DNA of 64,000 bases from Escherichia phage SP22. The notes beneath the pieces were generated by a model. It was given only the letters and a program-made list of their open reading frames with translations. It was not told where the DNA came from and searched no databases. The position numbers and the translations under genes were made by a program. The stretch is from the sequence record LC519489.1, one strand, 5' to 3'. This document shows positions 119 to 59,867 of this stretch, one piece after another (the stretch's first letter is position 1; each line of letters opens with the position of its first letter).

Positions 119-154
119 AGGCTTATAAATACTTAGAAGATAACTTAAAAGGTT

Positions 155-225
155 CCTCTAAAAAGGCTATTTAAACAGATATCTTTCTGGATATCTATCT
201 TTTATCTTAAAAGCCTTTTAAGAGG
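155..225. repeat. Nested inverted repeats upstream of first ORF (outer 13-bp arms 155-167/213-225, inner AGATATC/GATATCT 177-183/190-196)
   Basis: Arms reverse-complementary by eye (outer 12/13, inner 7/7). Confidence 0.45.
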
Positions 226-244
226 TCTTATAAGAGGCATACCA

Positions 245-696: not shown

Positions 697-2112
697 ATGA
701 GCAAGTTATTTAAACATGCGCACCTTCATGCAGGTCGAACTGAAAATGGTGCTGTAAACCATACTTCATCAATGTCTGCTCTGGTAGACTTCTACAAAGC
801 CGCTGGCTCAAGCCGTAGCAATGTAGAAATCTTACCAGACCTGTTCTACAAAGCTTTGCGTGAGGATGTTGATGTTGCAGTTCGTATTTTGCTTCACATG
901 CGAGATGTACGAGAAGGTATGGGTGAGCGTAAAGCCTTCAGAACTGTTTTACTTCAAGCAATCGAAGATAAAGTTTTAGAGCCTACACAGGTTCTTCGTA
1001 TTATGGATAAGATTGCAGAACTTGGTCGTTTTGATGACTTCAAAATCTTCGTAGGTACTCGTTTTGAGACAGATGCCTTCAAACATTTAGAAGCAGCATT
1101 ACTAGACCCTGAAACAGCAGGTTTAGCAGCCAAGTGGTTACCACGAGTAAAACCACGACACAAACAGTTTGTAAAACGTTTCTGCAAGTTTGCTAACTTA
1201 AGTGAGAAAGAGTACCGCACACTGTTGTCTGCACTTTCTGATACGGTTGAGCAAAAAATCTCTGCTAATGAGTTCGGTAAGATTGACTACAGCAAGATTC
1301 CTTCACTCGCTGCTGCACGTTACCAAAAACTCTTTAACCGTAAAGATGGAGAACGCTACAAAGCTTACATTGAGTCCTTATCAAAAGGTGAGACTAAGAT
1401 TAACGCTGGTGCTGTTTACCCATACGATGTGATTAAATCTATCAAGTATGGTAATGCAGATGTTGCTAATGAGCAGTGGAAAGCACTACCAAACTGGATG
1501 GCAGAGGGTGAAAACATCTTGTGTATGACTGATGTCTCAAGCTCGATGTCTTGGGTAAATCTTGGTTCAATCACTGCTCTTGATATTGGTGTATCTCTTG
1601 CCTTGTATGTAGCAGAACGCAACACAGGATGCTTTAAGGACGAGTTAATGGTCTATTCAACAAACCCTCATTTCATTGAACTGAGTGGTGATTTGAAAAA
1701 CCGTCATCGTCAGGTGATGCGTCATGTTGAATATGGCTCAACTAACTTACAAGCAGCTTTTGACCGTATTCTTGAGACAGGTAAGAGAAACAACTTGACT
1801 CAGAAAGATATGCCAAGTAAGCTTATCATCTTCTCTGATATGGAGTTCAATCAGGTTGATGGTGCAAATGGTCGTACAAACTTTGAAGAAATTCGCAGTA
1901 AGTACAAAAAAGCTGGATATGAGATGCCACAACTGGTATTCTGGTACTTAGCAAACCGTAATGGTACTTGCGAAGTGTCTGTTAAGGATAACGGTGTAGC
2001 AATGGTATCAGGGTTCTCTCCAGCCACTTTAAAAGCTCTGCTTGGTGGTGAGAAGTTTGACCCAATCAGCGTAATGCTCAAAGCAGTAATGATTGACCGT
2101 TACATCTGGTAA
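697..2112 (+). CDS. vWA-domain protein with alpha-helical N-terminal region (DUF2828/TROVE-like)
   Basis: MIDAS-type DVSSSMS motif and LIIFSDMEF strand in C-terminal half; RDVREGMGER motif N-terminal; 471 aa. Confidence 0.5.
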   Translation: MSKLFKHAHLHAGRTENGAVNHTSSMSALVDFYKAAGSSRSNVEILPDLFYKALREDVDVAVRILLHMRDVREGMGERKAFRTVLLQAIEDKVLEPTQVLRIMDKIAELGRFDDFKIFVGTRFETDAFKHLEAALLDPETAGLAAKWLPRVKPRHKQFVKRFCKFANLSEKEYRTLLSALSDTVEQKISANEFGKIDYSKIPSLAAARYQKLFNRKDGERYKAYIESLSKGETKINAGAVYPYDVIKSIKYGNADVANEQWKALPNWMAEGENILCMTDVSSSMSWVNLGSITALDIGVSLALYVAERNTGCFKDELMVYSTNPHFIELSGDLKNRHRQVMRHVEYGSTNLQAAFDRILETGKRNNLTQKDMPSKLIIFSDMEFNQVDGANGRTNFEEIRSKYKKAGYEMPQLVFWYLANRNGTCEVSVKDNGVAMVSGFSPATLKALLGGEKFDPISVMLKAVMIDRYIW

Positions 2113-2159: not shown

Positions 2160-2382
2160 GTTCTACATAGAAACGAAATGAGAGCTTTTCTAAGATACTG
2201 AAAAATATTTTAAAAAAGTTCTTGACAACTACTAAAAAATAATGTTAAAGTGGTTACATAGAGTTTGAAAATGACAGTACTGACCGGAACATCGAAAGAT
2301 GGGTACTGCGCCGGGGTTTTACACCCTCCCAGCCTGAGAGCGGGATAACCAAAGGAAAGACCGAATTTATTAAAAAGTTTAT

Positions 2383-2712: not shown

Positions 2713-2789
2713 ATTTTGCAGAAGACCGTATTCAGCAACAAAATACTTTTTGCGGATAAAAGAAAAAACACGGTCTGGCAATGTATTAA

Positions 2790-3106: not shown

Positions 3107-3318
3107 AATTATAATAAGTATTTCAAAATGATGTTTTGAGAGGGCTATTTAGCCCCTCCCTTAAAGAGTTCTTACGAGTATTCTTTAAAGGAGCAGAAGA
3201 CCAAATTCAGCAAGTACGTATGAAATTTTCAAGCCAATTTAATTTTGAAAAAATTTAAAACTTGGTCTGGCTCAACAAATTTACAGAAGACCGTTTACAG
3301 CAAACTTTAAACAATCTA

Positions 3319-3392
3319 TTTCTCCGGTAAAGAAAAGGCGAAGGTTCGATTCCTTCACTCGGCAGATGTCGAGTTGGTGTAATGGTAGCACT
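3319..3392 (+). tRNA. Circularly permuted tRNA-Thr(GGT)-like locus: 3' portion (anticodon arm, T-arm, acceptor 3' strand; 3319-3364) lies upstream of 5' portion (acceptor 5' strand, D-arm; 3368-3392)
   Basis: Anticodon arm tttct-CCGGTAA-agaaa, T-arm gaagg-TTCGATT-ccttc, 3' strand actcggc, linker, 5' strand gtcgagt (7/7 pairs incl. one G-U), D-arm gtgt-AATGGTA-gcac; no partner halves in the conventional order nearby. Confidence 0.35.
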
Positions 3393-3564
3393 TAAGATGA
3401 TAAACAACGGTCTGGTAATTATCTTTGTAGATAAGTTATTAAGCTTACCTGTGAGTATGCGACCACAAAGGGTGAAATGGTAAATTCTAGATTTAAACCC
3501 AACAATGCACATCGCTACAGACCTTAAGCAAGTCTGGGTAGCTTATCTACAAAGATAATTTAAT

Positions 3565-3640
3565 GGAAGTGTAGCAGAATGGTGATGCGGCAGACTTTTA
3601 ATCTGACAGGCGATGGGTTCGAATCCCTCCACTTCTACCA
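3565..3640 (+). tRNA. tRNA-Lys(TTT)
   Basis: Acceptor ggaagtg/cacttct, anticodon loop CTTTTAA, T-loop TTCGAAT, CCA encoded; T-stem has a bulge (gatggg/ccctc), shared with the Lys(CTT) paralogue. Confidence 0.65.
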
Positions 3641-3644
3641 ATAT

Positions 3645-3721
3645 GGTTCAGTCGCAGATAAGGTAATGCAGGGGTTTCATAAGCCCTATGAATGTGGGTT
3701 CGATTCCCATCTGAACCTCCA
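3645..3721 (+). tRNA. tRNA-Met(CAT) type (elongator Met or Ile2 not distinguishable)
   Basis: Acceptor ggttcag/ctgaacc, anticodon stem ggggt/gccct, loop TTCATAA, T-arm gtggg-TTCGATT-cccat, CCA encoded. Confidence 0.7.
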
Positions 3722-3722
3722 A

Positions 3723-3798
3723 GCTGGTATAGTTAAGAAGGTTATAACACTCCCCTGATAAGGGAACATCGGTGGTTCGATTCCACCTACCAGTACCA
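3723..3798 (+). tRNA. tRNA-Ile(GAT)
   Basis: Acceptor gctggta/taccagt, D-stem gtta/taac, anticodon loop CTGATAA, T-arm ggtgg-TTCGATT-ccacc, CCA encoded. Confidence 0.75.
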
Positions 3799-3813
3799 AT
3801 TTCAATAAAGTTG

Positions 3814-3842
3814 TTGACATTGAGATGTGACTACTTTATAGT
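3814..3842 (+). promoter_or_regulatory. Sigma70-like promoter TTGACA-N17-TATAGT inside the tRNA array
   Basis: Hexamers and spacing read directly; followed by about 290 nt with no tRNA or ORF. Confidence 0.5.
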
Positions 3843-4136
3843 AACTGAAAATGATTCAGCATATGTATAATTCAAACACCAATACATGAGCGTTAGACGT
3901 AACACAATGTGGGGAAATTTGTTGTACATATTCTGAATAGTTTTCGTTGCGTAGCGTCTATTTTGCAAATTTAAAATAAATGCAAACGACAATGTTTTTC
4001 TGGCAGTAGCTTGATAGGCTAAACACCAGTGAGGTCTTCCAATCCCTCATCAAAGAATTTGGCGTACTCGCCCACGGTATGATTAATAAGGTGGGCATCT
4101 TTAAGGGCTTTCTAAGAGAGTCTTTAAAGATAATTA

Positions 4137-4218
4137 CGGGGCGTATCTCAGCGGTCTTCTAAACCGCCGTTAACCGAGTAAGTGGAGTATGCGGGTTCGA
4201 GTCCTGCCGCCTCGACCA
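4137..4218 (+). tRNA. Atypical tRNA-like gene, anticodon TCT (Arg), no recognisable D-arm and a 23-nt extra region; possible pseudo-tRNA
   Basis: Acceptor cggggcg/cgcctcg, perfect hairpin gcggt-CTTCTAA-accgc, T-arm gcggg-TTCGAGT-cctgc, CCA encoded; only 7 nt between acceptor and anticodon stem. Confidence 0.35.
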
Positions 4219-4232
4219 ATTTTGGAGAAATC

Positions 4233-4580
4233 ATGAAAACTTGTATTAGGTGCAAACTTAGCAAGGATGAAAATGATTTCTACATGAAAGATGGTAAGAG
4301 AACTCATTCATACTGTAAAAAGTGTGTTAATGAGCAAACCATAGAAAGACAAAGAGCACTTAAACTTTCAGCTATTGAGTACAAAGGTGGGGTTTGTCAT
4401 GATTGTGGTAAAAGGTATCATCCAGCAGTGTATGACTTCCATCATTTGAATCCTTCAGAGAAAGATTTTAACATTGGTCATAGAAAAAGTCTGAAGTTCT
4501 CTCAAGAACTAAAAGATGAACTTGACAAATGTGTTTTGCTATGTTCAAATTGCCATAGGGTAAGACATGCAAAGTATTAG
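4233..4580 (+). CDS. HNH homing endonuclease
   Basis: HNH motifs (YDFHHLNPSEKDFNIGH ... LLCSNCHRVRH); start placed at ATG after GGAG; upstream extension in the ORF track overlaps the tRNA-like gene. Confidence 0.7.
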   Translation: MKTCIRCKLSKDENDFYMKDGKRTHSYCKKCVNEQTIERQRALKLSAIEYKGGVCHDCGKRYHPAVYDFHHLNPSEKDFNIGHRKSLKFSQELKDELDKCVLLCSNCHRVRHAKY

Positions 4581-4717
4581 TTAGCAGATTGCTTAGACGA
4601 CCTTATCGGGTCTCCGTGTAAGGAGGTGGTCTGTATCTCATGTTTTCCAGAACATGTAAATAATCTGAGAAGGGGCTTTACAGTGTTGCGAAAATACGGT
4701 AAGCTTCGAATTACAAT

Positions 4718-4800
4718 ATGGGACGATGTTAAGACTCTAAGGCATGAGCAACGGCCTCCAAAACCGTTTCAAAGGGGTTCAACTCCTCCGTCCCATGCCA
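4718..4800 (+). tRNA. tRNA-Trp(CCA)-like with a 7-nt insertion between acceptor and D-arm
   Basis: Acceptor atgggac/gtcccat (7/7), D-arm ctc-TAAGGCAT-gag, anticodon loop CTCCAAA, T-loop TTCAACT, CCA encoded; would complete the 20-amino-acid set. Confidence 0.45.
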
Positions 4801-4813
4801 AAGTCTTATTAGG

Positions 4814-4901: not shown

Positions 4902-5057
4902 CCTAATAAGATTTATACCGTCCATGCTTGCTCGCATTTTCGGTTTATCCTCGTGTATTGGTTGTACACACTGATAAAGCACCTAGTAGGTGTCACGGAG
5001 AAGAGATAATATCAAGCTCTCCAAAGGTTCTAGTCACCGGATTAAACAAGACTATGC

Positions 5058-5079
5058 AAAGACCAAATTAGGTCTTTTT
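5058..5079 (+). terminator. Weak rho-independent terminator-like hairpin (AAAGACC/GGTCTTT + T-run)
   Basis: Inverted repeat and T-tract read directly; AT-rich stem. Confidence 0.3.
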
Positions 5080-5171
5080 AGAGGGCTTCTAAGGTTATTA
5101 CAGCTTGTTGTGGAACCTTGTTGCTTAGGTTCTTAGAAGTTCTCTAAAAAGATTTAATGGGAGATTGACAC

Positions 5172-5624
5172 ATGGCACGTAGCAGTTTGACTAAAGATAT
5201 TCTTGAACCTTTAGTAAAGGATTCAGTATCATTCAGAGAAGTACTTATTAAGCTTGGGAGAAAACCAGCAGGTGGTTCTCAGTCACATCTAAAGCGTGTT
5301 ATAGAGAAGTTTGAAATAGACACTTCTCATTTCCTCGGACAAAAGGCTGGTAAGGTTAAAACTGTACCAAAAAGAAAGCCTGAAGAAATACTAATTCTGC
5401 GTGAATCTGGTGAAAGAGCTAGGTCTTCACAACTAAGAAGAGCTTTAATAGCCTCTGGTGTCGAATACAAATGCTCTAAATGTGGTCAGTTACCGTATTG
5501 GTTGGGTAACCCTCTAACTCTTGATGTTGACCACATTAACGAGAACTGGTTAGATGATAGAAAAGAGAATCTTCGGTTCTTGTGTCCAAATTGCCACAGT
5601 CAATTCTCAAGACATTTGATTTAA
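5172..5624 (+). CDS. HNH homing endonuclease
   Basis: HNH motif LDVDHINENWLDDRKENLRFLCPNCH; GGGAG RBS upstream. Confidence 0.7.
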   Translation: MARSSLTKDILEPLVKDSVSFREVLIKLGRKPAGGSQSHLKRVIEKFEIDTSHFLGQKAGKVKTVPKRKPEEILILRESGERARSSQLRRALIASGVEYKCSKCGQLPYWLGNPLTLDVDHINENWLDDRKENLRFLCPNCHSQFSRHLI

Positions 5625-5962: not shown

Positions 5963-6376
5963 ATGAAAATATGTAGTACTTGCAGAATACCAAAAGATGA
6001 AAGCTTATTCCATAAGAATAAGAACAAGAAAGATGGTCTTCAAAGTCAATGCAAAGACTGTGCAAGACTTCGTGATGCAAAGAGTTATCAAGCAAATGAT
6101 AAAAGGAAAGAGGCTATCAAAAGCACTCGTAACTTCAAGAGGGAGTATAATAAAACTCTAGCTAGAAGGTACAAAGCTTTATGCAAATGTCATATATGTG
6201 GTGAGAAAGAACCAGCTGCACTGGATTTACACCATACAGACCCTTCCCAGAAAGATTTGAATCCTGCATCACTTTATTCATACTCCACAAAAAGATTAAA
6301 AGATGAAATCAGAAAGTGTATCGTCTTGTGTGCTAACTGTCACAGAAAAGTACACGCTGGTATCATACAAGTTTAA
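5963..6376 (+). CDS. HNH homing endonuclease
   Basis: HNH motifs LDLHHTDPSQKDLNPA ... VLCANCHRKVH; Cys-rich N-terminus. Confidence 0.7.
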   Translation: MKICSTCRIPKDESLFHKNKNKKDGLQSQCKDCARLRDAKSYQANDKRKEAIKSTRNFKREYNKTLARRYKALCKCHICGEKEPAALDLHHTDPSQKDLNPASLYSYSTKRLKDEIRKCIVLCANCHRKVHAGIIQV

Positions 6377-6454: not shown

Positions 6455-6550
6455 ATTTAGAGGTCAAGTGAAAGACCGCTTTGAGTCAACTGAAGACCGT
6501 AACAAATCCCACGGAGTTGAGTTAGCGGCACAACTTCAGACCTCTTTCAT

Positions 6551-7608: not shown

Positions 7609-7639
7609 CTTCTAAGGGTTCTTACGAGAGTCCTTAAAT

Positions 7640-7715
7640 GTGGCCTTATCATAAATGGTAATGACCCATGCTGTGAACATGGTCTATACGGGTTCAAATC
7701 CCGTAGGTCACCCCA
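7640..7715 (+). tRNA. tRNA-His(GTG)
   Basis: Acceptor gtggcct/aggtcac, D-arm tcat-AAATGGTA-atga, anticodon stem ccatg/catgg, loop CTGTGAA, T-arm acggg-TTCAAAT-cccgt, CCA encoded; no G at -1. Confidence 0.75.
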
Positions 7716-59546: not shown

Positions 59547-59867
59547 ATGAGCAAAGTTTATAACACTCGTAAATTACAGATTTTCGTACTGTGCCAGTTT
59601 ATGGCTAAAGAATACAACTTCTACTATTGTGGTACAGGTTTTATTAGTGATGATGATGGCTCATACCTCCCATTCAAAGAAGCTGTAAAACTCTTTAATG
59701 AAGAGAAAAGCTCTAAGAAAGATATTGAAAAGGTTAAGCTAACTTACAGCAAGAAAGATAAGAAGATTATCTGCCTAGATAACTTTGTAAAAGTTACTGG
59801 AAAAGCAAAAGAGCTTATGGATGAGAGTGAGATTCCATTCACAAGCCTCTTGAAAGTAGCTCAGTAA
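59547..59867 (+). CDS. Hypothetical protein
   Basis: ORF track. Confidence 0.4.
   Translation: MSKVYNTRKLQIFVLCQFMAKEYNFYYCGTGFISDDDGSYLPFKEAVKLFNEEKSSKKDIEKVKLTYSKKDKKIICLDNFVKVTGKAKELMDESEIPFTSLLKVAQ

What the first reader, a model, noticed from the sequence alone, without database searches (positions are those of the whole stretch)
3393..4136. Promoter-driven non-coding stretches inside the tRNA array with no tRNA or credible ORF
Region 3393-3564 (172 nt) and the approximately 290 nt downstream of the TTGACA-N17-TATAGT promoter at 3814-3842 contain inverted repeats (for example TAGACG ... CGTCTA at about 3891/3954) but no tRNA fold and only very short ORFs. A third spacer at 6455-6550 is bracketed by AGAGGTC ... 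GACCTCT and contains the degenerate GAAGACCGT motif. These are candidate small RNAs or processing substrates.
Basis: seen in the sequence. Interest (0 to 1): 0.45.

Follow-up and report, generated by a model that had tools for sequence, protein, structure and literature searches.

The report
Phage Y-like and tmRNA-like RNA genes
The "empty" gaps in this Felix-O1-type phage's tRNA cluster are genes for conserved structured RNAs: partners for a Ro60-like protein, and a promoter-driven RNA that carries a ribosome-rescue (tmRNA-type) tag message but has no tRNA-like end. None of these is annotated or, as far as I could find, described.

Summary
The window is a Felixounavirus.

- **3393-3420** is the 3' end of a 128-nt YrlA-type Y RNA (3287-3414). 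It is a circularly permuted tRNA-like domain on a 6-bp stem followed by UUACAGCAA. Three shorter RNAs (2555-2624, 2722-2777, 3197-3269) share this handle. A Ro60-fold protein gene lies just upstream (697-2112).
- The same handle flanks homologous genes in distant phages and MAGs: 62 and 34 hits on the gene strand, 0 on the opposite strand. It also mirrors Dictyostelium Class I RNAs.
- **3421-3557** is a conserved 137-nt RNA closed by a covarying 19-bp stem. Its function is unknown.
- **3843-4136** is driven by a conserved promoter and belongs to an RNA family found in 658 phage records from many unrelated lineages. All 13 examined lineages keep a 10-codon tmRNA-type tag frame (here ANDNVFLAVA*), an H5-like hairpin and a covarying pseudoknot. 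None has a recognisable tRNA-like domain.
- **6455-6550** is nearly invariant across three genera and remains unexplained.

All evidence is comparative; expression was not tested.

The parts
697..2112 (+). Context gene: Ro60-fold protein (DUF2828 + DUF7788/vWA), the presumed protein partner of the Y-like RNAs
   Evidence: Pfam DUF7788 E 1e-42 and DUF2828 E 4e-29. PHROG 850 'RNA-binding protein'. AF2 model pLDDT 81. The 11 best PDB matches are all full-length Ro60/TROVE chains, E 7e-9 to 8e-7, TM 0.5-0.64. The Bas63 homologue gp130 was reported as Ro60-like and as a counter of the ppl defence (PMC11482910).
2555..2624 (+). E1, short Y-like RNA: AAG, stem GACCAA/UUGGUU, UUACAGCAA, 3' UGG
   Evidence: Direct-repeat family D3. 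Model R1, built only from distant phages, scores it 27.1 bits, E 2.5e-4.
2722..2777 (+). E2, short (56 nt) Y-like RNA: AAG, stem GACCGU/ACGGUC, AUUCAGCAA, 3' UG
   Evidence: R1 36.6 bits, E 1e-6. Full-length sub-threshold match to Rfam Dicty_Class_I_RNA, 24.0 bits against a gathering score of 41.5.
3197..3269 (+). E3, short Y-like RNA with the same handle
   Evidence: R1 24.8 bits, E 9.5e-4. Conserved in relatives.
3287..3414 (+). E4, YrlA-type Y RNA. Handle 3289-3294/3407-3412 followed by UUACAGCAA. Anticodon-like hairpin 3319-3335. T arm 3340-3356. Closed acceptor stem 3357-3363/3368-3374. D arm 3377-3391. Its last 22 nt are the start of the flagged interval.
   Evidence: The MFE fold gives exactly this layout. 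In 8 Ounavirinae, 97% of cells are paired, the acceptor stem is 100% paired, and 3 of its 7 pairs are compensatory. Distant counterparts hit Rfam YrlA at 39-43.5 bits.
3421..3557 (+). E5, a 137-nt RNA closed by a ~19-bp stem, with an inner hairpin CAGAC-CUUAAGCAA-GUCUG; function unknown
   Evidence: Inverted repeat I2, 22 nt, 95% complementary. z = -4.7. Two sequence types of equal length in Ounavirinae. RNAalifold predicts 26 pairs, 5 of them with compensatory changes. Found only in Ounavirinae.
3814..3842 (+). Sigma-70-type promoter of the tmRNA-like RNA
   Evidence: 11/12 match. Conserved in 14 loci. Similar promoters sit in front of the homologous RNA in Akira, Vi01 and L046.
3847..3945 (+). 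Optional 5' long-hairpin domain of the tmRNA-like RNA; its 3' strand ends in the family's conserved AGUUUUC
   Evidence: Present in the window, FelixO1 and L009; absent from 11 other loci. Present in 111 phage records. The core is 81% identical to the Chaseviridae phage phiEcoM-GJ1, with a covarying apical stem GUUA/UAAC vs CUUC/GAAG.
3937..4096 (+). Core of the tmRNA-like RNA. 5' AGUUUUCG. Hairpin 3947-3975. A-rich linker. Tag frame. H5-like hairpin 4000-4029. Hairpin 4030-4049 with loop UCUUCCAAUC. H-type pseudoknot with S1 4063-4068/4076-4081 and S2 4070-4075/4091-4096.
   Evidence: 658 phage records share it. 13 lineages were aligned. H5, the UCUUCC hairpin and S1 all covary. The Rfam tmRNA model aligns AAAAUAAAUGCAAACGACAA at top posterior probability, but the hit scores only 16 bits.
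3982..4014 (+). Tag reading frame GCA AAC GAC AAU GUU UUU CUG GCA GUA GCU UGA = ANDNVFLAVA*; there is no start codon in frame
   Evidence: A 10-codon frame AN(D/E)xxx(L/R)(A/M/V)(V/A/S)A* is kept in all 13 lineages. The last Ala uses all four GCN codons, Asn uses AAC/AAU and the stop is UAA/UGA. The other two frames are not conserved.
4097..4131 (+). 16-bp terminal hairpin of the leader, one of a recurrent CUUUAAGGG...CCUUUAAAG-type palindrome
   Evidence: Inverted repeat I8; conserved.
4137..4218 (+). 82-nt tRNA-like RNA with anticodon loop CUUCUAA (UCU), no D arm, G3.U70, A73 and an encoded CCA. It occupies the slot of a normal tRNA-Arg(UCU) in half of the relatives.
   Evidence: Sub-threshold tmRNA match to both ends, 22 bits. 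Not called by ARAGORN.
6455..6550 (+). Third spacer: nested hairpin GAGGUC.../...GACCUC with degenerate AAGACCG(C/U) motifs; function unknown
   Evidence: z = -3.3. Almost invariant in 9 loci from 3 genera. Found in 259 records, essentially all Ounavirinae. Not matched by model R1.

Best explanation
The flagged gaps are genes for structured RNAs that sit among the phage's tRNA genes. Processing of the flanking tRNAs most likely cuts them out of the same transcripts; that step is inferred.

(1) Y-like RNAs. Positions 3393-3420 are the 3' end of a YrlA-type Y RNA (3287-3414). This is a circularly permuted tRNA-like domain (T arm, acceptor stem closed by a loop, D arm) carried on a handle. The handle is AAG, a 6-bp terminal stem whose first pair is G-C, then UUACAGCAA, with CUG at the 3' end. 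Three shorter RNAs carry the same handle. I infer that the handle is the binding site of the Ro60-fold protein encoded 1.2 kb upstream. I also infer that the resulting particles act as Ro60/Y-RNA particles do elsewhere: gating the protein and tethering it to a nuclease or another partner, here probably for RNA surveillance or counter-defence.

(2) 3421-3557 is a separate conserved RNA closed by a 19-bp stem. My best guess is a processing or stability element, such as an RNase III substrate, or another small RNA.

(3) tmRNA-like RNA. 3843-4136 has its own promoter and carries the mRNA-like half of a tmRNA. The elements, in order, are:
- an upstream hairpin and an A-rich linker;
- a GCA resume codon and a 10-codon tag (ANDNVFLAVA);
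- a stop codon in the loop of an H5-like hairpin;
- a further hairpin and a pseudoknot.
It has no tRNA-like domain. The pattern of codon changes says the tag is translated. I therefore infer that it serves as a template on stalled host ribosomes, giving the phage its own tag. How it is delivered without a tRNA-like domain is not known.
For: Identity and context.
- The window is a Felixounavirus.
- The protein has a Ro60 fold.

The handle.
- Four copies lie in the window.
- A strict pattern scan gave 62 hits on the gene strand against 0 on the other strand in 74 distant viral loci chosen by protein similarity only. Shuffles gave about 0.35. The hits carry 36 different stem sequences.
- The same scan gave 34 against 0 in 80 GTDB loci.
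- A model built only from distant phages recovers E1, E2 and E3 in the 64-kb window at E 1e-6 to 1e-3.

E4.
- The MFE fold is the permuted cloverleaf.
- The acceptor stem has three allelic versions, all fully paired.
- Long elements with the same handle in distant phages hit Rfam YrlA at 39-43.5 bits.

E5.
- The terminal stem covaries.

The tmRNA-like RNA.
- It occurs in 658 phage records across Ounavirinae, Ackermannviridae, Schitoviridae, Chaseviridae and several unclassified groups.
- The tag frame and its codon pattern are conserved.
- H5, a hairpin and the pseudoknot stem covary.
- There are partial tmRNA model matches.
- It is not the host ssrA: only 338 of 5426 E. coli genomes match, and those matches lie in chromosomal sites without annotated features (probably prophages) and on ~110-kb plasmids (probably phage-plasmids).
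- In a distant phage (L046), a tag RNA, a CAGCAA-bearing tRNA-like RNA, two short Y-like RNAs and the Ro60-like gene lie side by side.
Against: - There is no expression, end-mapping or binding data. All evidence is comparative.
- No element reaches an Rfam gathering score. E4 does not hit YrlA at all.
- The canonical Ro60-binding motif GNCGAA is absent.
- Elements in the model-building alignment were selected for pairing, so its 100% paired figure is by construction. The strand asymmetry is the real test.
- A tmRNA half without a tRNA-like domain has no known way onto the ribosome.
- The neighbouring 82-nt tRNA-like RNA shows no more complementarity to it than shuffles do, and it looks like a decoder.
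- Third-position variation in the last tag codon lies in the H5 stem, so structure could explain part of it.
- E5 and 6455-6550 have no assigned function.
Confidence: 0.65

Rival explanations
1. The tmRNA-like RNA is not translated. It acts as a decoy that mimics the mRNA-like part of host tmRNA. It would soak up a factor that recognises that part (S1, SmpB tail, RNase R), or otherwise block host trans-translation during infection.
For: No tRNA-like domain is present in cis. There is precedent for phage tmRNA fragments that inhibit tmRNA: the mycobacteriophage DS6A TLD-only RNA (PMC4131195, PMC11915505). The sequence around the resume codon is the most conserved part.
Against: A mimic of host tmRNA should track the host tag (ANDENYALAA). 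Instead the phage tags differ from it and from each other, while keeping length, frame, stop and amino-acid classes. Asn and Ala codons change synonymously.
Confidence: 0.2
2. The stretches are decayed pseudogenes: a rearranged tRNA-Thr (E4), a fossil tmRNA fragment (3843-4136) and a degraded tRNA-Arg (4137-4218). They would have no function of their own.
For: REP5's annotators called a 131-nt 'tRNA-Thr GGT' over part of E3/E4. The 93-nt 5' hairpin is an indel. No element reaches a curated score threshold.
Against: Compensatory changes keep the stems paired. The tag frame is intact in 13 lineages. The same RNAs recur in unrelated phage families. The handle recurs with 36 different stems. Pseudogenes would not do this.
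Confidence: 0.07
3. They are only spacers and leaders of the polycistronic pre-tRNA: processing signals for RNase P, E or III with no life after cleavage.
For: They lie between tRNA genes on the same strand. E5 has a 19-bp stem of the size RNase III cuts. Palindromic hairpins recur at spacer ends.
Against: A processing signal does not need a conserved tag reading frame, a permuted tRNA-like domain, or a sequence motif shared with loci that have no tRNAs nearby. Several distant handle-bearing elements flank the Ro60-like gene without tRNAs.
Confidence: 0.05
4. They are relics of mobile DNA: miniature inverted-repeat elements, or target and co-conversion tracts of the HNH homing endonucleases that pepper the array.
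For: Three HNH genes lie in the array. The 93-nt hairpin is present or absent at one exact site and has a relative in an unrelated phage family. The tRNA-Arg slot has two alleles, and in the window an HNH gene follows directly.
Against: In phiEcoM-GJ1 and Vi01 the hairpin sits in the same place relative to the same downstream RNA, so it is part of that RNA rather than an independent insertion. No extra copies exist in the window. This explanation does not account for E1-E5 or the tag frame.
Confidence: 0.03

Closest known systems
Bacterial YrlA / Y RNAs bound by Ro60 (Rsr); Rfam RF02553; Chen et al. 2014, PMC4201824
   Same: Encoded within 4 kb of a Ro60-fold gene and on the same strand. There is a 5'/3' terminal stem. 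The tRNA-like domain has near-invariant T and D arms, and the stem-loop between them sits in the acceptor position. It comes together with shorter RNAs that lack the tRNA-like part, as YrlB does.
   Different: The protein is the DUF2828 branch, not a TROVE-annotated Ro60. The GNCGAA motif is replaced by UUACAGCAA directly after a 6-bp stem. The window's RNA does not match the Rfam model. The RNAs are embedded in a tRNA array.
Dictyostelid Class I RNAs (Rfam RF01414; Kjellin et al. 2021, PMC7919456)
   Same: AAG start. A 6-bp terminal stem whose first pair is G-C and whose sequence varies freely. An adjacent motif (C)CUUACAGCAA with the same invariant positions. A variable A/U-rich middle. A 3' CUG(U). 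Median length about 60 nt.
   Different: Reported as unique to Dictyostelia, with a DUSE promoter and an RRM protein (CIBP) as the known binder. The phage motif lies one nucleotide closer to the stem. Rfam scores of 24-27.5 bits are below the gathering score of 41.5. Whether this is common descent, a shared protein partner or convergence is untested.
tmRNA (SsrA), one-piece and permuted two-piece forms (Rfam RF00023, RF04321)
   Same: A-rich linker and GCA resume codon. A 10-codon tag starting AND and ending in small hydrophobic residues. A stop codon in the loop of a hairpin. Flanking hairpins and a pseudoknot. A long basal helix where permuted tmRNAs carry P2.
   Different: No tRNA-like domain with free acceptor ends. 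Not called by ARAGORN. Scores of 16-29 bits against a gathering score of 47. The tag ends LAVA/LMAA/RVAA instead of ALAA. It is carried by phages of many families rather than by the host.
Mycobacteriophage DS6A 'TLD-only' tmRNA (PMC4131195, PMC11915505)
   Same: A phage carrying only one half of a tmRNA.
   Different: DS6A keeps the tRNA-like half and lacks the tag. The RNA here keeps the tag half and lacks the tRNA-like domain.
Phage T4 stable RNAs species 1 and 2 (rnaC, rnaD) in the tRNA cluster (from my own knowledge, not checked here)
   Same: Small stable RNAs of unknown function encoded within a phage tRNA gene cluster and released by tRNA-type processing.
   Different: No sequence comparison was made. 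No Ro60-like gene or tag frame is known there.

Membership tests
Y RNA / YrlA | Encoded near a Ro60 orthologue, on the same strand, within 4 kb | tested here: met
   The ORF 697-2112 has a Ro60 fold. E1-E4 start 0.4-1.2 kb downstream on the same strand.
Y RNA / YrlA | Long stem formed by the 5' and 3' ends | tested here: met
   A 6-8 bp terminal stem in E1-E4. It covaries across 18 distant elements.
Y RNA / YrlA | Ro60-binding motif GNCGAA(N)G near the 5' end | tested here: not met
   Absent. UUACAGCAA occupies the equivalent place.
Y RNA / YrlA | tRNA-like domain: T arm and D arm with an acceptor-position stem-loop between them | tested here: met
   E4.
Y RNA / YrlA | Rfam RF02553 gathering score (69 bits) | tested here: not met
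   No hit for E4, even at E up to 10. Distant counterparts score 39-43.5 bits.
Y RNA / YrlA | Physical binding to the Ro60 protein | not testable with these tools
   Needs RIP or EMSA.
Dictyostelid Class I RNA | Short terminal stem with an invariant 5' G paired to the C of 3' CUGU, preceded by AA | tested here: met
   AAG + GACCGU/ACGGUC + UG in the window. The first pair is G-C in 18 of 18 distant elements, followed by UG. The true RNA ends were not mapped.
Dictyostelid Class I RNA | 11-nt motif CCUUACAGCAA next to the 5' stem strand (invariant U3, C6, C9, A10, A11) | tested here: met
   E1 and E4 have 5 of 5 invariants; E2 and E3 have 4 of 5. The spacing is one nucleotide shorter.
Dictyostelid Class I RNA | Rfam RF01414 gathering score (41.5 bits) | tested here: not met
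   24.0 bits (E2), 14.7 (E4), 27.5 (L083).
Dictyostelid Class I RNA | DUSE promoter about 60 nt upstream; dictyostelid genome | tested here: not met
   Phage genome with sigma-70-type promoters.
tmRNA | tRNA-like domain: acceptor stem with G3.U70, T arm, 3' CCA, formed by the RNA's ends | tested here: not met
   No T arm in 3843-4136. ARAGORN finds no tmRNA in the window or in 7 homologous loci.
tmRNA | Tag reading frame with a resume codon, no start codon, an in-frame stop and a hydrophobic C-terminus | tested here: met
tmRNA | Stop codon presented in hairpin H5 | tested here: met
   CUGG...CCAG hairpin 4000-4029 with UGA in the loop. It covaries with CUGA...UCAG.
tmRNA | Pseudoknot PK1 upstream of the tag, and further pseudoknots downstream | tested here: inconclusive
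   Upstream I see only a hairpin. Downstream there is one H-type pseudoknot with compensatory changes in S1 and in S2 (read from the sequences).
tmRNA | Rfam gathering score (47 bits) | tested here: not met
   16 and 22 bits in the window; 25.7-29.2 bits in Akira and SP-076.
tmRNA | Alanylation, SmpB binding, tagging of stalled nascent chains | not testable with these tools
   Needs biochemistry or proteomics.

The most novel reading that the evidence does not exclude
The promoter-driven RNA is a 'half tmRNA' that hundreds of enterobacterial phages carry. It is a tag template with no tRNA-like domain of its own. It would be loaded onto stalled host ribosomes in trans, by host tmRNA-SmpB machinery or by a separately encoded tRNA-like RNA. 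The phage could then append its own C-terminal tag (...LAVA). It would work alongside a Ro60-like protein whose RNA handle is the same as that of Dictyostelium Class I RNAs.
Probability: 0.25. Interest if true: 0.9.

Novelty: new variant of a known kind. Interest (0 to 1): 0.8.

Why it matters
- **Annotation gap.** Phage tRNA arrays are usually annotated as tRNAs plus junk. Here the 'junk' encodes at least two RNA systems that touch central host machinery.
- **A testable Ro60-like system.** A Ro60-like protein with a defined RNA handle gives a direct experimental entry to a protein that a knockout screen already linked to counter-defence (Bas63 gp130 against ppl). It would also extend Y-RNA biology to the DUF2828 protein family, which also occurs in plants.
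- **Dictyostelium Class I RNAs.** The handle's match to these RNAs offers a testable lead for a class whose mechanism has been open since 2004.
- **Phage interference with ribosome rescue.** A tmRNA-type tag template without a tRNA-like domain, present in more than 650 sequenced phages and in E. coli prophages and phage-plasmids, would be a new way for phages to interfere with or exploit ribosome rescue. Current tmRNA finders miss it.

Tried and rejected
- **PDB sequence search.** Searching the ORF by sequence against PDB found nothing. Only the fold search showed Ro60.
- **Extra model hit.** Model R1 hit 59735-59801 at 14.5 bits. It lies inside ORF 59547-59867, so I treated it as chance.
- **Model coverage.** R1 does not match E5, 3843-4136 or 6455-6550. 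Those are not members of the handle class.
- **4137-4218 as the missing tRNA-like domain.** Initial support: G3.U70, A73, CCA and a tmRNA-model match to both ends. I dropped it as the main reading for three reasons. Six lineages keep an invariant anticodon loop CUUCUAA on a covarying stem. It is allelic with a normal tRNA-Arg(UCU). Its best duplex with the tag RNA is no better than shuffles.
- **Permuted tRNA-like domain in the 5' hairpin.** I looked for one in the window's hairpin and in 'domain X' of other lineages. T arms exist in KP13-27, SP-076, KP591P1 and STGO-35-1, but with closed, extended 'acceptor' helices and A3-U70.
- **Small protein genes.** The AUG overlapping the resume codon opens a frame that is not conserved. 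There are no + strand ORFs of 40 aa or more. The minus-strand ORFs of 46-85 aa run against the direction of all neighbouring genes.
- **REP5's 'tRNA-Thr GGT'.** The proposed 5' acceptor strand does not pair (sequence).
- **Host origin.** blastn finds the tag RNA in only 338 of 5426 E. coli genomes, never at ssrA.
- **Literature.** No paper in the library describes these RNAs in Felix-like phages, or a tag-only phage tmRNA. One query was badly designed and uninformative. Avesson 2011 (the Class I RNA pull-down) and the supplement of Chen 2014 could not be read. I could not determine whether Dictyostelium DDB_G0281243 is a DUF2828 protein.
Full report
**What the window is**

Megablast places the region in the Felixounavirus group, at 94-98% identity to FelixO1, ECML-1, EcoM2 and about 300 other records. 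ARAGORN finds 25 tRNA genes between 2383 and 8722, all on the + strand. Three HNH endonuclease genes are interspersed among them.

The gene directly upstream of the array, 697-2112, matches Pfam DUF2828 and DUF7788 and PHROG 850 'RNA-binding protein'. A sequence search of PDB found nothing. An AlphaFold model built from 13 homologues has pLDDT 81. Its 11 best structural matches in PDB are all full-length Ro60/TROVE proteins from Xenopus, human, Deinococcus and Thermus phage phiLo (E 7e-9 to 8e-7). A preprint on the related phage Bas63 already noted that the homologue gp130 looks like Ro60 and counters the ppl defence. It speculated that 'some tRNA genes are possibly Y RNAs' (PMC11482910).

**Check of the observation**

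The promoter at 3814-3842 is the best sigma-70 match in 9 kb and is conserved in 14 related loci. No tRNA is called and no credible ORF exists in the flagged stretches. The stretches fold much better than shuffles.

Two points do not hold:
- Position 3393 lies inside a tRNA-like element.
- TAGACG and CGTCTA are not partners in the fold. TAGACG also sits in a segment that most relatives lack.

**A repeated handle and a permuted tRNA-like RNA**

Four spacers begin with cAGAAGACC(G/A)nnUWCAGCAA and end with GGUCUGG (family D3). The fourth (3287-3414) folds, as its minimum-energy structure, into the following elements in order:
- a terminal stem;
- an anticodon-like hairpin;
- a canonical T arm (GAAGG UUCGAUU CCUUC);
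- a 7-bp stem closed by a 4-nt loop;
- a D arm (GUGU AAUGGUA GCAC).

The order T arm, closed acceptor-position stem, D arm is the topology described for bacterial YrlA Y RNAs (PMC4201824). In eight Ounavirinae the closed stem exists in three versions: ACUCGGC/GUCGAGU, ACCCUUC/GAAGGGU and ACACGUU/GGCGUGU. All are fully paired, and three of the seven pairs change on both sides. The T and D arms are essentially invariant.

The flagged interval therefore starts 22 nt before the end of this RNA.

**The handle is a general companion of the Ro60-like gene**

I fetched 80 viral loci by protein similarity alone; 74 of them share only 40-45% identity. I scanned both strands for a strict pattern: G plus five bases, three bases, CAGCAA, and within 260 nt the reverse complement ending in C followed by UG.

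| Set | Gene strand | Opposite strand | Shuffles |
|---|---|---|---|
| 74 distant viral loci (851 kb) | 62 | 0 | about 0.35 |
| 80 GTDB genome loci | 34 | 0 | not run |

The viral hits carry 36 different stem sequences, and 43 of the 74 loci have at least one hit. The hits lie next to the gene.

The elements fall into three size groups:
- short ones with a median near 58 nt;
- 90-136-nt ones containing T and D arms;
- larger ones of 150-250 nt with other structured inserts.

In five distant loci, the long elements match Rfam YrlA below threshold, at 39-43.5 bits.

A covariance model built only from 18 distant short elements was run over the whole 64-kb window:

| Element | Bits | E-value |
|---|---|---|
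| E2 | 36.6 | 1e-6 |
| E1 | 27.1 | 2.5e-4 |
| E3 | 24.8 | 9.5e-4 |
| 5' part of E4 | 17.0 | 0.09 |

One more weak hit lies inside an ORF, and I discard it. The 100% pairing in the model alignment is by selection. The strand asymmetry and the independent recovery are the real evidence.

**Resemblance to Dictyostelium Class I RNAs**

The only non-tRNA Rfam family that these elements touch is Dicty_Class_I_RNA: E2 at 24.0 bits full length, E4 at 14.7 and L083 at 27.5, against a gathering score of 41.5.

The published hallmarks of that class are (PMC7919456):
- an AAG start;
- a 6-bp terminal stem of free sequence with an invariant first G-C pair;
- the adjacent 11-nt motif CCUUACAGCAA;
- a variable middle;
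- a 3' CUGU;
- a length of about 60 nt.

These coincide with the phage consensus uAAG-GaUgc-UUACAGCAA...gcAuCC-UGu. The class is reported as unique to Dictyostelia.

Four proteins were pulled down with one Class I RNA. One of them, DDB_G0281243, has unknown function. I could not retrieve its sequence or the original paper. This is a lead, not a finding of homology.

**The 137-nt RNA, 3421-3557**

Immediately after E4 lies an element closed by a stem of about 19 bp. Relatives carry one of two sequence types of the same length. The terminal stem and a 3' hairpin keep pairing through compensatory changes: CAGAC/GUCUG, CAAAC/GUUUG and CAGACC/GGUCUG. The element is confined to Ounavirinae. It is not matched by Rfam or by the handle model. 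I cannot assign a function. The stem is long enough for RNase III.

**The promoter-driven RNA, 3843-4136**

Relatives show two layers. The first 93 nt (3846-3938) form a long hairpin. It is present in the window, FelixO1 and one other locus, and absent from eleven. The remaining 200 nt are about 95% conserved from Felixounavirus to Mooglevirus and form five hairpins.

Searching the phage collection gave these results:
- The hairpin occurs in 111 records, including the unrelated Chaseviridae phage phiEcoM-GJ1.
- The 200-nt core occurs in 658 records. They include Vi01-like Ackermannviridae, the Schitoviridae phage SP-076, Akira, Skatevirus, SSU5 and Klebsiella and Enterobacter phages.
- In every case examined the RNA lies in unannotated intergenic DNA, usually beside tRNA genes.

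In phiEcoM-GJ1 and Vi01 the long 5' hairpin is also present, in the same position. It is therefore an optional domain of the RNA, not an insertion of foreign DNA.

**A tmRNA-type tag frame**

In all 13 lineages an A-rich AUAAAU is followed by GCA AAY GAN and a stop exactly ten codons later. The tags are ANDNVFLAVA (window, Mordin), ANDAQFLAVA, ANDNTFLAVA, ANDDQFLAVA, ANEEMYLAVA, ANEDTYLAVA, ANDDVVLMSA, ANDDVILMAA, ANDDVVLMAA and ANDSEMRVAA.

The codon pattern points to translation:
- The last alanine uses all four GCN codons.
- Asn uses AAC/AAU.
- The stop is UAA or UGA.
- The other two frames are not conserved.
- The only nearby AUG opens a non-conserved frame.

The E. coli tag is ANDENYALAA (my knowledge).

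Other conserved features:
- The stop codon sits in the loop of a hairpin that covaries (CUGG/CCAG against CUGA/UCAG).
- Downstream is a hairpin with loop UCUUCCRAYU and three covarying pairs.
- Further downstream is an H-type pseudoknot (window CGUACU-c-GCCCAC-GGUAUG-AUUAAUAAg-GUGGGC). S1 covaries in the alignment. S2 differs in every lineage yet stays complementary, for example GACGGGAG/CUCCCGUC in Vi01, GCUUCGA/UCGGAGC in GJ1 and UCCCUGA/UCAGGGA in STGO-35-1 (read).

The Rfam tmRNA model aligns AAAAUAAAUGCAAACGACAA with maximal posterior probability, but the hit as a whole scores only 16 bits. The permuted-tmRNA model gives 22-29 bits. All are below the gathering score of 47.

ARAGORN calls no tmRNA in the window or in seven homologous loci. 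Surveys of tmRNA genes list phage examples only in mycobacteriophages and Bacillus phage G, plus a TLD-only form in DS6A that inhibits tmRNA. The RNA is not a copy of host ssrA. Only 338 of 5426 complete E. coli genomes match, on chromosomal sites without annotated features that are probably prophages, and on plasmids of about 110 kb that are probably phage-plasmids.

**Where is the tRNA-like domain?**

I could not find one. The 82-nt RNA just downstream (4137-4218) at first looked like it, because it has:
- no D arm;
- G3.U70, A73 and an encoded CCA;
- a 22-bit match of the tmRNA model to both of its ends.

However, half of the relatives have an ordinary tRNA-Arg(UCU) in that slot. The 82-nt form also recurs at 83-90% identity in 262 records of quite different phages. 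Across six lineages its acceptor and anticodon-like stems covary, while the loop CUUCUAA stays invariant. That is the signature of a decoder, though an odd one. Its best duplex with the tag RNA is no better than shuffles.

Other lineages carry a T arm in a flanking long-helix domain, but with closed ends and A3-U70. So the family has the mRNA-like half of a tmRNA and, as far as I can see, not the tRNA-like half. How such an RNA reaches the ribosome is the open question.

**A link between the two systems**

In the distant viral contig L046 the following lie in a row:
- a promoter;
- a hairpin followed by CUACAGCAAC;
- a tag frame (ANDSTYHMAAVA*);
- a tRNA-like RNA whose anticodon-arm position holds an insert with AUUACAGCAA;
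- two short handle RNAs;
- the Ro60-like gene.

The co-location in two very different phages suggests the systems work together, but this is inference.

**The third spacer, 6455-6550**

It is almost invariant in nine loci from three genera and occurs in 259 records, essentially all Ounavirinae. It folds into a nested hairpin (z = -3.3). It carries two degenerate copies of the AAGACCG(U/C) start of the handle, but not the CAGCAA motif or the 3' partner, and the model does not match it. There is too little variation to test covariation. Its function is unknown.

**Verdict**

- The flagged DNA holds the tail of a YrlA-type Y RNA that belongs to a newly delineated handle class tied to DUF2828/Ro60-like genes.
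- It holds a conserved long-stem RNA of unknown function.
- It holds a promoter-driven member of a widespread, unannotated family of tag-bearing tmRNA-like RNAs.

What is shown: conservation, covariation, genomic association and the coding pattern of the tag. What is inferred: protein binding, processing, translation of the tag and any role in counter-defence.

Noticed in passing
window 4137-4218: An 82-nt tRNA-like RNA. It has anticodon loop CUUCUAA (UCU), no D arm, a 23-nt near-invariant 'variable' region, G3.U70, A73 and an encoded CCA. It is allelic with a normal tRNA-Arg(UCU) in relatives. It is present in 262 phage records of several families and is not called by ARAGORN. It could be charged with alanine or arginine.
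   Followed up: partly
window 2722-2730, 3287-3295 vs 4152-4160: AGAAGACCG at the 5' end of the Y-like RNAs E2 and E4 is the exact reverse complement of CGGUCUUCU in the anticodon arm of tRNA-Arg(UCU) and of the 82-nt RNA. I have no explanation. The stems of the handle differ in other phages.
   Followed up: no
L046 5370-6001: A distant viral contig has, in a row: a tag RNA (ANDSTYHMAAVA*), a tRNA-like RNA with a UUACAGCAA-bearing insert at the anticodon-arm position, two short handle RNAs and the Ro60-like gene.
   Followed up: partly
window 4720-4794: A tRNA-like sequence with an apparent CCA (Trp) anticodon and an irregular D region. ARAGORN misses it. It gives a weak tRNA-Sec model match (23 bits).
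   Followed up: no
window 132-234, 3161-3190, 4097-4131, 5067-5158, 7610-7640: Recurrent palindromic hairpins of the type CUUUAAGGGyUUUCUAAGAGAGyCUUUAAAG at the ends of spacers. They may be processing, termination or protein-binding sites.
   Followed up: no
window 2256-2382: A 127-nt leader between the promoter at 2222-2251 and the first tRNA. It gives a weak sraL match (28.5 bits) and contains AAAGACCGAA, a handle-like start without a partner.
   Followed up: no
window 4233-4580, 5172-5624, 5963-6376: Three HNH endonuclease genes inside the tRNA array. Their presence varies between relatives and coincides with allele swaps of neighbouring RNA genes.
   Followed up: no
L171 560-660, L172 290-400 and 560-660, L176 470-600: In other lineages the tag RNA is flanked by a long-helix domain (GGUAAGAGCAUUG ... 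CAAUGCUCUUUCC) that encloses a T arm. It lies 5' of the core in some phages and 3' in others, which suggests domain shuffling or circular permutation within the family.
   Followed up: partly
L168 2294-2388 (phiEcoM-GJ1): A 95-nt tRNA with a large insertion in the D loop. The record annotates it as tRNA-Arg 'may contain an intron', while ARAGORN calls it tRNA-Leu(CAG).
   Followed up: no
window 4581-4813 and 4904-5171: Further non-coding stretches in the array, including a 27-nt inverted repeat at 5067-5093/5132-5158. I did not examine them.
   Followed up: no
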